Made by a program: the position numbers and the translations under genes
Shown: positions 42,623-44,232 of the stretch, in pieces
Layout: each line of letters starts with the position of its first letter
Numbering within the stretch: position 1 is the stretch's first letter
Source of the DNA: Escherichia coli O127:H6 str. E2348/69
GTDB taxonomy: Bacteria > Pseudomonadota > Gammaproteobacteria > Enterobacterales > Enterobacteriaceae
Assembly (NCBI RefSeq): GCF_000026545.1
Contig: NC_011601.1
Length of the DNA: 64,000 nt
Reading direction: 5' to 3' (one strand)
The notes under the pieces: model-generated
What the model saw: the letters and a program-made list of their open reading frames with translations, nothing else
Databases searched by the model: none
What the model was told of the DNA's origin: nothing

Positions 42623-43606
42623 ACTGCTGAAGACGCGGCACAGCCGGCGGGGGGAAACGGACTACTTCTATGACACCACGGGGCGCATCACGGCGTGTCG
42701 CTCGGAGGATGAGGGGTATCTGGCGAGCTGGGAGTACGACGCGGCGGGCAACCTGCTGGACAGGCGCGCGGGGGGAAGGGCCACGGCAGAAAACAGCGTG
42801 GTGCTGTTCAACCGGCTGATGTCTTACCGTGGTGTGCACTACCGTTATGACGAATTTGGCCGTGCGGTGGAAAAGGAGGGGCGGAGCGGAACACAGAGTT
42901 ACCGTTATGATGCGGAACACCGGATGGTGGAAGTGACGACAGCGCGGGAGACATACCGGTATGTGTACGATGCGCTGGGGAGGCGGACGGAAAACAGCAC
43001 ATCAGCCCTGACGGTAAACCGTACAACCGGACAAAATTTTTATGGGACGGAATGCGGCTGGCGCAGGAGAACAGGCCGGAGGGAATAAGCAGCCTGTATA
43101 TCTACAGCGACCCGGGAAGTTATGAACCGCTGGCGCGGTTGGATAAGGCGGGGAAAGAGGGACCGAACCGGATACTGTATTTTCACACGGATGTGAACGG
43201 TGCTCCGGAAGAGATGACGGACAGCAACGGGAAAATTGTGTGGGAGACGGGGTATCAGGTCTGGGGTAACACGATACAGGAGAAGGACCACGGCGGGGTG
43301 GAGCAGAACCTGCGATACCAGGGGCAGTACCTCGACAGGGAAACGGGGCTGCACTACAATCTGCACAGGTACTATGATCCGGATGTCGGGCGGTTCATGG
43401 TAACGGACCCGATAGGGCTGCGGGGCGGGTTAAACTTATATGCTTATGCGCCGAATCCGTTAACGTATATTGATCCTCTTGGTCTTTGTAAATTAAGGGG
43501 AAGTAATGGGCGCTTTAGAAGTGCACAGAATATTCAGGAAGAAATAGGCGGCCTGCCCAATTTTTCAGGAAAAACCCCCAGGGCAAATACGGCAAACTTT
43601 GCGTAA
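42450..43606 (+). pseudogene. rhsE: Rhs C-terminal core fragment (rhsE-like) with internal frameshift
   Basis: YD-repeat sequence in frame 0 from 42450, switches to frame 2 near an A-tract about 42991-42994; PxxxxDPxGL motif (YYDPDVGRFMVTDPIGL ... DPLGL). Confidence 0.75.
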
Positions 43607-43916
43607 TCGAGTTTATTCTTCGGTACAAGCGCATAGTGGAGGAGAGGTCTGGACAAAAGCATTACCTGACGGAAATACTGTTGCAGTGAGAATTGACCCA
43701 GCAAATCCTCGCTCACCTTCACATTATGCCGATGCTGTACCTCATGCTCATATTGAAACAGTTCCAACATCCAGTGTTTCTAATGGGAATTATCGTCCGA
43801 GAGACGTGATGGGCAGGCATACTGCCACTGGTGGGGGGTCTGACCGAGGAACGAATCCGAATTATAACGCTGATGTTCACATTCCAATGTCTCCGGGACG
43901 ATCCCCATATAATTAA
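43548..43916 (+). CDS. possible out-of-frame continuation of the Rhs C-terminal toxin tip
   Basis: open frame directly after Rhs tip in a different frame; A5C5 tract at about 43570-43581. Confidence 0.35.
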   Translation, partial: AACPIFQEKPPGQIRQTLRNRVYSSVQAHSGGEVWTKALPDGNTVAVRIDPANPRSPSHYADAVPHAHIETVPTSSVSNGNYRPRDVMGRHTATGGGSDRGTNPNYNADVHIPMSPGRSPYN

Positions 43917-43927
43917 TGTGAGGTTTT

Positions 43928-44206
43928 ATGAATATCCGAAATCAATATAATGAAGCCTTAAATAAATTAGATGTTGATGTTAATGATGGTTTGAGAGATT
44001 TAATAAACATATATTGTGTGGCTATTGATTCTTTTGAAAATGATATCGTTGACTCGATTGCTTTATACGTGATTGATATGGAAAATAAAGATACTTGTCG
44101 ATATCTACAAGAAATATTATCAGAGAATAAAGATCCTTATTTAGTAAAAGAGTTTAATGTATGGATAAAAGAAATTAAGAAAAATATTAAAATAAAAGCC
44201 GGGTAA
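43928..44206 (+). CDS. hypothetical small protein, candidate Rhs immunity protein
   Basis: 92-aa AT-rich ORF immediately downstream of Rhs tip, followed by terminator. Confidence 0.5.
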   Translation: MNIRNQYNEALNKLDVDVNDGLRDLINIYCVAIDSFENDIVDSIALYVIDMENKDTCRYLQEILSENKDPYLVKEFNVWIKEIKKNIKIKAG

Positions 44207-44232
44207 GAAATTAAATCTTCCCGGCTTTTTAT
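44196..44232 (+). terminator. Rho-independent terminator
   Basis: gccggg...cccggc hairpin followed by T-run. Confidence 0.6.

What the first reader, a model, noticed from the sequence alone, without database searches (positions are those of the whole stretch)
43400..44232. Rhs C-terminal tip split across two frames, followed by an AT-rich candidate immunity gene
After the DPLGL motif the Rhs frame stops within about 45 codons (43606). A second frame opens at about 43548 and continues about 120 codons to 43916. The overlap contains an A5C5 tract (about 43570-43581). Either the toxin domain is frameshifted, or the downstream frame is a distinct small protein. An AT-rich 92-aa ORF (43928-44206) with its own terminator sits in the position of a cognate immunity gene.
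Basis: partly seen in the sequence, partly recalled or inferred. Interest (0 to 1): 0.5.

Follow-up and report, generated by a model that had tools for sequence, protein, structure and literature searches.

The report
Dead Rhs toxin, surviving immunity gene
This is the decayed end of an Rhs toxin gene in E. coli E2348/69: the toxin, predicted to cut DNA, is broken by a one-base insertion while its antidote gene next door is intact, which is an ordinary outcome for such loci.

Summary
The window is E. coli E2348/69, at the rhsE-type locus between ansP and pptA. Compared with an intact 1576-aa PAAR-Rhs protein of strain JNE151685 (94.6% DNA identity), the tip carries one extra C (A5CTCC has become A5C5, 43570-43579). 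The second frame is the real toxin domain, not a separate gene.

The lesion is inherited, not an assembly error. Three E2348/69 assemblies and three other strains that were read share it. It sits on a remnant that also has a 3.8-kb vgrG-to-rhs deletion, a second frameshift (-1 at 42991-42994) and a Gly-to-Val change at a conserved position.

The 92-aa ORF is intact, all-helical, and linked to this toxin at three chromosomal loci. It has its own ribosome-binding site and terminator, so it is probably an orphan immunity gene. Interest is low to moderate.

The parts
41567..42505 (+). Fragment holding the first 939 nt of a T6SS vgrG gene, fused out of frame to the rhs fragment.
   Evidence: It is 98.7-99.3% identical to the start of the intact 1992-nt vgrG of strain A37. 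PGAP annotates it as a partial pseudogene.
42508..43486 (+). 3' fragment of the Rhs YD-repeat core, ending in the PxxxxDPxGL motif (43457-43486).
   Evidence: It is 94.6% identical to the JNE151685 rhs gene and 96.7% identical to the A37 rhs gene. Identity to A37 stops at 43485, the boundary between the core and the tip.
42991..42994 (+). A4 tract that is A5 in intact relatives; this is a -1 frameshift in the Rhs core.
   Evidence: Pairwise alignment and tract comparison across loci.
43332..43360 (+). Promoter-like site (TCGACA-17-TACAAT) inside the conserved core. It is a candidate internal promoter for the tip and immunity transcript.
   Evidence: Consensus scan, 10 of 12 matches. The implied transcription start, about 43367, lies 89-90 nt upstream of the PxxxxDPxGL codons. 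That is the same offset as the mapped P2 promoter of Salmonella rhs (PMC7043789). The equivalence is by position only.
43487..43916 (+). C-terminal toxin domain (142 aa after repair), split between two frames. It is a long-form relative of the PT7 DNase.
43570..43579 (+). A5C5 tract holding the extra C (+1 nt) that breaks the toxin frame at codons Thr30/Pro31 of the tip.
   Evidence: Alignment A1 and tract comparison in nine loci.
43928..44206 (+). Intact candidate immunity gene (92 aa, WP_001026259.1), with a GAGG ribosome-binding site at 43920-43923.
   Evidence: The AF2 model is a five-helix protein with pLDDT 91.8.
44195..44228 (.). G+C-rich hairpin flanked by an A-run and a T-run. It is a likely bidirectional terminator shared by the immunity gene and the convergent SymE-like gene.
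   Evidence: Fold of -19 kcal/mol, z = -4.86.
44236..44436 (-). 5'-truncated SymE-like gene (66 aa against 97 aa in JNE151685). It forms the 3' end of the transferable module.
   Evidence: PGAP annotation, NCBIfam NF010128 with E = 1e-12 for the full-length relative, and translation.
44436..44629 (+). Stray 194-nt fragment of Rhs core abutting the SymE-like gene.
   Evidence: It is 82-87% identical to internal core sequence of the JNE151685 and A37 rhs genes.

Best explanation
The region is the decayed 3' end of a T6SS Rhs effector locus, in this order:

1. An Rhs core fragment.
2. A C-terminal toxin tip.
3. An immunity gene.
4. A convergent SymE-like gene.

In intact relatives the tip is the payload of a PAAR-Rhs protein. 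It is released after the PxxxxDPxGL motif and injected into neighbouring bacteria. By homology to PT7 it is most likely a Mg2+-dependent, non-specific DNase, with Asp70, His86, His88 and His131 as the catalytic residues (inferred).

In E2348/69 and its relatives at this locus the toxin cannot be made or delivered, for four reasons:

- An extra C in the A5C5 tract shifts the frame at residue 30-31 of the tip.
- A -1 frameshift lies upstream in the core.
- A 3.8-kb deletion removed the 3' part of vgrG and the 5' 2.8 kb of rhs.
- A conserved Gly42 has become Val.

The immunity gene is intact. It has its own ribosome-binding site and a terminator, and possibly the conserved internal rhs promoter. 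It therefore most likely persists as an orphan immunity gene that protects the cell against kin strains still firing this toxin (inferred).
For: **A real frameshift of a real toxin domain**
- Alignment to the intact 1576-aa Rhs of JNE151685, and to in-frame orphan copies in 14EC033 and PE164, shows a single inserted C.
- The repaired translation matches a family of 107 cluster representatives. In nearly all of them the domain is at the extreme C-terminus of the carrier.

**Not an assembly artefact**
- The sequence is 100% identical in three independent E2348/69 assemblies.
- The same tract is present in strains A25, RM14723 and 2015C-4136CT1.

**A remnant, not a working gene**
- Strain A37 has vgrG plus a 4.1-kb rhs gene at the same locus. 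The window lacks A37 positions 13940-17745.
- PGAP already marks both pieces as partial or frameshifted pseudogenes.
- The vgrG and rhs-core query matches only this one place in E2348/69.

**T6SS delivery in relatives**
- The JNE151685 protein has PAAR and DUF6531 domains.
- A DcrB-related gene lies upstream of it.

**DNase prediction**
- The AF2 model has pLDDT 94.2.
- hhalign between the two family alignments gives 86.5% probability and E = 4.6e-6. It aligns RIDP with RIDP, PHAH with DHVH and HIP with HIP.
- The PT7 mutations D37A, H47A and H73A abolish toxicity. PT7 is a Mg-dependent endo-DNase (bioRxiv 10.1101/2021.10.19.465003).
- D70, H86 and H131 are invariant in 64 sequences.

**Immunity gene**
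- The protein sequence, WP_001026259.1, is identical in all four E2348-type (rhsE-locus) strains whose annotation was read.
- 47 homologues were found. The 28 aligned are at least 72% identical to it, apart from one frameshift-like outlier at 47%.
- It is linked to this tip at the pptA, ybgA and yafV loci.
Against: - No enzymatic or neutralisation data exist for this subfamily.
- The PT7 link is remote: there is no direct sequence hit to the PDB, Foldseek found nothing, and the hhalign probability is 86.5%, not above 95%.
- The E. coli subgroup has Ile where the wider family has a near-invariant Lys (HAHIE against HAHKE).
- The immunity protein is all-helical and unrelated to PIM7, so the toxin-immunity pairing differs from the PT7 system.
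- Expression of the immunity gene is not shown. Promoter-like sites in the region are no more frequent than in shuffled sequence.
- The 14 genomes that carry the remnant are nearly identical here, so conservation of the intact immunity ORF among them says little about selection.
Confidence: 0.8

Rival explanations
1. The second frame is an independent small gene, for example the 105-aa ORF from the TTG at 43599, and not part of the Rhs tip.
For: Gene callers in public assemblies report it as a separate 105-aa protein (P0002). It would retain every conserved catalytic residue.
Against: - In every intact relative the sequence is continuous with Rhs or another carrier protein.
- There is no Shine-Dalgarno sequence upstream of the TTG.
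- The ORF would lack the first helices of the confidently modelled domain.
- Stand-alone short forms in the database are ORF-calling fragments of the same frameshifted allele.
Confidence: 0.03
2. The frameshift is a homopolymer sequencing error and the tip is really in frame.
For: The lesion lies in an A5C5 run, a classic site for indel errors.
Against: - Three independent E2348/69 assemblies are 100% identical over the region.
- Three further strains that were read carry the same tract.
- Eleven other genomes match the 881-bp region at 99.5% identity or more.
- The tract differs from the in-frame allele by substitutions as well as the extra base (CTCC against CCCCC).
- Even if repaired, the gene would remain broken by the upstream -1 frameshift and the vgrG-to-rhs deletion.
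Confidence: 0.02
3. The tip is still made at a low level by +1 ribosomal slippage at ACC CCC AGG. AGG is a rare Arg codon, and slipping to CCC A|GGG restores ...GKTPGQIR... exactly. Transcription would come from the internal promoter, so that the DNase and its immunity protein act as an Rhs-derived toxin-antitoxin pair.
For: - The sequence context permits the slip (my own reading of the codons).
- A promoter-like site sits at the same offset from PxxxxDPxGL as the functional P2 promoter of Salmonella orphan rhs toxins, which do act as toxin-antitoxin modules (PMC7043789).
- dN/dS of the repaired tip against JNE151685 is 0.16.
Against: - The A5C5 site is confined to one nearly clonal allele. 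All diverged homologues are in frame, so the site is not conserved as a programmed signal would be.
- The same allele has a Gly42-to-Val change at a position that is at least 90% conserved.
- The low dN/dS is explained by divergence that accumulated before inactivation.
- No stimulatory element was identified.
Confidence: 0.04
4. The tip is a toxin but not a DNase. The His-rich site could instead cut RNA or act as another metal-dependent hydrolase.
For: - The N-terminal helix and beta-strand segment resembles small RNase toxins (my own reading, not tested).
- One family member gave a weak hit, E = 0.04, to a Barnase/EndoU/RelE-like Pfam family.
- The homology to PT7 is remote.
Against: - The best and only significant structural match is PT7. 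Its mutants degraded DNA but not tRNA in vitro.
- The three essential PT7 residues align with invariant residues here.
Confidence: 0.25

Closest known systems
Displaced or orphan Rhs C-terminal tips with immunity genes in Enterobacteriaceae (Jackson et al. 2009, PMC2935791; Poole et al. 2011, PMC3150448; Salmonella orphan rhs, PMC7043789)
   Same: - A core fragment ending in PxxxxDPxGL.
- A variable tip followed by a small A+T-rich immunity gene.
- No delivery domain.
- Further decay by frameshifts, which Jackson et al. describe for Serratia fragments.
- An internal promoter-like site at the Salmonella P2 offset.
   Different: - The 'main' gene itself has been deleted, by a vgrG-to-rhs fusion. 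The tip therefore cannot be reactivated by recombination with a resident full-length rhs; only one matching place exists in E2348/69.
- Each module also carries a convergent SymE-like gene.
PT7 polymorphic-toxin DNase and PIM7 of Bacillus cereus (PDB 8owu; Nachmias et al., bioRxiv 10.1101/2021.10.19.465003)
   Same: - The position at the C-terminus of polymorphic toxins.
- Aligned RIDP, HxH and HIP motifs that contain PT7's essential D37, H47 and H73.
   Different: - The domain is nearly twice as long (about 110-140 aa against 78). It has extra N-terminal helices and longer loops.
- There is no sequence-level hit between the families.
- The carriers are Rhs, PAAR and CdiA-type proteins rather than LXG.
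- The immunity protein is a five-helix protein, not PIM7-like.
- Activity is untested.
E. coli PAAR-Rhs effectors with Rhs-CT toxins (Ma et al. 2017, as reviewed in PMC6730261)
   Same: The intact homologue in JNE151685 has the PAAR-Rhs-CT architecture. It has an upstream DcrB-related gene, and an immunity gene follows it directly.
   Different: This tip matches none of the Pfam toxin domains. The activities that review lists for Rhs-CT1 to Rhs-CT8 (metallopeptidase, DNase, RNase) rest on such known domains.

Membership tests
Rhs polymorphic toxin (C-terminal tip module) | YD-repeat Rhs core directly upstream. | tested here: met
   42508-43486 is 94.6-96.7% identical to the cores of full-length rhs genes. 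PGAP labels it an RHS repeat-associated core.
Rhs polymorphic toxin (C-terminal tip module) | PxxxxDPxGL motif marking the boundary between the core and a variable tip. | tested here: met
   P-LTYI-DPLGL is at 43457-43486. Identity to the A37 rhs gene ends at 43485, while identity to JNE151685 continues.
Rhs polymorphic toxin (C-terminal tip module) | N-terminal delivery domain (PAAR) and a complete shell, so that the toxin can be exported. | tested here: not met
   These are deleted in the window by the vgrG-to-rhs fusion, and two frameshifts are present. They are present in the JNE151685 homologue: PAAR with E = 2e-5 and DUF6531 with E = 1.6e-18.
Rhs polymorphic toxin (C-terminal tip module) | Cognate immunity gene immediately downstream that neutralises the tip. 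| not testable with these tools
   Position, ribosome-binding site and linkage at three loci fit. Neutralisation needs an experiment.
PT7 DNase toxin family | The PT7 fold. | tested here: met
PT7 DNase toxin family | Conserved essential residues D37, H47 and H73. | tested here: met
   hhalign aligns them with D70, H86 and H131, which are invariant in 64 sequences. The PT7 residues were identified from the mutagenesis primers and P0161.
PT7 DNase toxin family | Sequence or profile-level homology. | tested here: inconclusive
   Profile-profile comparison gives 86.5% probability and E = 4.6e-6 over 79 columns. There is no phmmer or hmmsearch hit to the PDB chain.
PT7 DNase toxin family | Mg2+-dependent non-specific endo-DNase activity. 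| not testable with these tools
   Known for PT7 only.
PT7 DNase toxin family | PIM7-type immunity partner. | tested here: not met
Programmed ribosomal frameshift site | Slippery site conserved among diverged homologues that all need the shift. | tested here: not met
   Only the E2348-type (rhsE-locus) allele has A5C5. JNE151685, 14EC033, PE164, E. marmotae and metagenomic homologues are in frame.

The most novel reading that the evidence does not exclude
The frameshifted tip may not be dead. On this reading it is transcribed from the conserved internal rhs promoter and translated with occasional +1 slippage at CCC-AGG. That would give trace amounts of a PT7-like DNase, held in check by the immunity protein. 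The remnant would then act as an addiction or stress module, like the Salmonella orphan Rhs toxin-antitoxin pairs.
Probability: 0.04. Interest if true: 0.5.

Novelty: new member of a known kind. Interest (0 to 1): 0.27.

Why it matters
For the genome the result is ordinary: one more decayed Rhs tip with a surviving immunity gene, already flagged as a pseudogene by the standard annotation pipeline.

Two things are of modest value. First, an unannotated toxin domain now has a testable assignment as a long-form relative of the PT7 DNase, with named catalytic residues and a new all-helical immunity partner. The domain has no Pfam or NCBIfam model and covers 107 clusters on Rhs, PAAR and CdiA-type carriers. 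Second, the locus gives a clean natural example of toxin loss with immunity retention in a reference EPEC strain. That bears on which T6SS attackers E2348/69 can withstand.

Tried and rejected
- **Profile libraries for the tip.** Pfam on the fused translation, on the intact tip and on 64 family members gave nothing better than E = 0.02. NCBIfam gave no hit.
- **PDB by sequence or profile.** Only noise was returned.
- **Simple terminator scan.** It missed the hairpin because of its long loop, so the hairpin was folded directly.
- **Promoter scan.** Sites are not enriched over shuffled sequence. The internal promoter rests on positional equivalence only.
- **Compensating frameshifts.** The -1 and +1 frameshifts cancel in number, but the 585 nt between them are read in another frame that contains stops. 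There is no single ORF.
- **dN/dS.** It is dominated by divergence that predates inactivation, and the counts for the immunity gene are too small. It is not informative about current selection.
- **Other readings.** Sequencing error, an independent small gene and programmed frameshifting were each considered and rejected, as set out under the rival explanations.

Full report
**Where the window comes from.** The 881-bp region matches three assemblies of E. coli E2348/69 (EPEC O127:H6) at 100% identity and 11 other complete genomes at 99.5% or more. It lies between ansP and pptA, the rhsE-type locus. The RefSeq annotation calls a partial 'phage late control D' (vgrG) pseudogene and a 'frameshifted; incomplete' RHS core pseudogene. 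It then lists a hypothetical protein (WP_001026259.1), a SymE-family toxin and a further partial fragment.

**Checking the observation.** Three-frame translation shows the Rhs frame ending ...YIDPLGLCKLRGSNGRFRSAQNIQEEIGGLPNFSGKTPRANTANFA*, with the stop at 43604-43606, 39 codons after DPLGL. A second frame is open from 43548 to the stop at 43914-43916. The two frames overlap at the A5C5 tract, 43570-43579. The 92-aa ORF at 43928-44206 lies in DNA of 24-28% G+C. A GAGG sequence sits 4 nt before its ATG. A hairpin at 44195-44228, flanked by A- and T-runs, follows it (-19 kcal/mol, z = -4.9).

**The tip is frameshifted.**
- Strain JNE151685 carries the same tip, immunity gene and SymE-like gene at another locus (next to ybgA). 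There they form the end of an uninterrupted 1576-aa Rhs ORF.
- The DNA alignment shows GGAAAAA-CTCCAGG in JNE151685, 14EC033 and PE164, against GGAAAAACCCCCAGG in the window. That is one extra base.
- Removing one C restores ...NFSGKTPGQIRQTLRNR..., and the frame then runs to the same stop.
- The frame-1 tail is therefore the first 31 residues of the toxin domain plus 8 out-of-frame residues. It is not a small complete domain.

**The lesion is inherited and is one of several.**
- The A5C5 tract is present in every allele at this locus (E2348-type, rhsE locus) that was read: E2348/69, A25, RM14723 and 2015C-4136CT1.
- The same alleles share a -1 frameshift in the core, with A4 at 42991-42994 where intact genes have A5.
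- Strain A37 shows the likely ancestral layout at this locus: a small effector-like gene, a lipoprotein gene, a 1992-nt vgrG, a 4.1-kb rhs gene and an immunity gene.
- Relative to A37 the window lacks 3.8 kb, joining vgrG nucleotide 939 to the distal rhs core out of frame.
- Identity to the A37 rhs gene stops at 43485, exactly at the boundary between core and tip. This is the signature of C-terminal displacement (PMC2935791).
- E2348/69 has no second copy of this vgrG or rhs core. The tip therefore cannot be rescued by recombination with a resident full-length gene.
- The repaired tip also has Val at Gly42, a position conserved in at least 90% of family members.

**What the toxin is.**
- The tip hits nothing in Pfam, NCBIfam or the PDB by sequence.
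- An exhaustive search found 107 cluster representatives with E ≤ 1e-3 (73 with E ≤ 1e-10). The domain is almost always at the extreme C-terminus of its carrier.
- By my reading of the sequences, the carriers include YD-repeat Rhs proteins, PAAR proteins and a CdiA-like protein with a VENN motif.
- In a 64-sequence alignment R68, D70, H86 and H131 are invariant. K57, H88, K89 and E90 are nearly so.
- AlphaFold2 gives a confident model, with pLDDT 94.2. Foldseek found no PDB analogue.
- PT7 is one of nine toxin domains reported by Nachmias et al. It has a new fold, and its purified point mutants degrade plasmid and genomic DNA with Mg2+ but not tRNA. The D37A, H47A and H73A mutations abolish toxicity.
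- I reconstructed parts of PT7 from the published mutagenesis primers and recovered the 78-aa B. cereus protein and its relatives.
- A profile-profile comparison of the two families gives 86.5% probability and E = 4.6e-6 over 79 columns. It aligns VRIDP with MRIDP, PHAH with DHVH and HIP with HIP.
- PT7's three essential residues thus fall on invariant residues of this family. I conclude that the tip is a long-form relative of PT7 and most likely a metal-dependent DNase. This is an inference; no activity has been measured for this subfamily.

**Delivery in intact relatives.** The JNE151685 protein has a PAAR motif and a DUF6531 domain, and a DcrB-related gene lies just upstream. This is the usual layout of T6SS PAAR-Rhs effectors (PMC6730261).

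**The immunity candidate.**
- The ORF starts 11 nt after the toxin stop.
- It is linked to this tip at three unrelated chromosomal sites: pptA, ybgA and yafV.
- 47 homologues were found in Enterobacterales. The 28 aligned are at least 72% identical to it, apart from one frameshift-like outlier at 47%.
- Its model is a five-helix protein with pLDDT 91.8 and only generic helical-repeat neighbours. It is not PIM7-like.
- In the E2348 lineage a one-base loss in a terminal A-run lengthens the protein from 87 to 92 aa.
- The protein is identical in all four strains of this lineage whose annotation was read.

**How the immunity gene could be expressed.**
- A promoter-like site at 43332-43360 (TCGACA-17-TACAAT) would start transcription about 89-90 nt before the PxxxxDPxGL codons.
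- That is the same offset as the experimentally mapped P2 promoter of Salmonella rhs, which drives orphan toxin and immunity expression (PMC7043789).
- This is positional equivalence only. Such sites are not enriched in the region.

**Alternatives.**
- An independent small gene is unlikely. There is no ribosome-binding site, the ORF would lack the first helices of the domain, and the sequence is continuous with carrier proteins in all relatives.
- Sequencing error is excluded by several independent assemblies and strains.
- A programmed +1 frameshift at CCC-AGG would restore the exact protein. However, the site is confined to one nearly clonal allele that carries other lesions. I give this reading about 4%.
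- dN/dS of the repaired tip against JNE151685 is 0.16. This reflects divergence before inactivation rather than present constraint.

**Verdict.** The biology is ordinary: a decayed Rhs tip with a retained immunity gene. The modestly new element is the structural assignment of an unannotated, widespread toxin domain to the PT7 DNase fold, paired with a different immunity family.

Noticed in passing
window 40463-40993 and 41007-41345 (+): An A+T-rich gene pair lies upstream of the vgrG remnant. The 176-aa protein has an HEMMH motif and matches the metallopeptidase effector domain of P. aeruginosa VgrG2b (PDB 6h56_A, E = 2.9e-18), with no Pfam hit. The next ORF weakly matches NF045617, 'putative T6SS immunity periplasmic lipoprotein' (E = 5e-7, below cutoff). 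Together they look like a stand-alone effector-immunity pair. The lipoprotein gene is frameshifted in strains RM14723 and 2015C-4136CT1.
   Followed up: partly
window 44236-44436 (-); L002 8857-9150; L007 978-1193 and 3356-3556: A SymE-like gene, convergent on the immunity gene, travels with the tip and immunity gene at three different loci. In strain PE164 two successive orphan Rhs modules each end in such a gene, and its 5' end abuts the next core fragment. Here it is cut to 66 aa, against 97 aa in JNE151685. Why SymE-like genes form the 3' boundary of these modules is unexplained.
   Followed up: partly
window 43332-43360 (+): A promoter-like site lies inside the most conserved part of the Rhs core. 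It is identical in JNE151685 and A37, and it sits at the same distance from the PxxxxDPxGL codons as the mapped internal P2 promoter of Salmonella rhs.
   Followed up: partly
window 44436-44629 (+): A stray 194-nt Rhs core fragment lies between the SymE-like gene and pptA. It corresponds to core sequence upstream of the deletion end-point (82-87% identity). It is probably the start of a lost further orphan module.
   Followed up: partly
window 44171-44206: The immunity gene ends in an A-run that is A5 here and A6 in other alleles. This changes the C-terminus (92 aa against 87 aa) and moves the stop codon into the terminator stem.
   Followed up: yes
window 42991-42994 and 43570-43579: The two frameshifts in the remnant, -1 and +1, cancel in number. 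The first and last segments are therefore in the same frame, but the 585 nt between them are not, and no ORF spans them.
   Followed up: yes
proteins P0080, P0092 and P0111: A few members of the toxin family break the C-terminal rule. P0080 (1092 aa) has six matched stretches. P0092 and P0111 carry the domain at the N-terminus.
   Followed up: no
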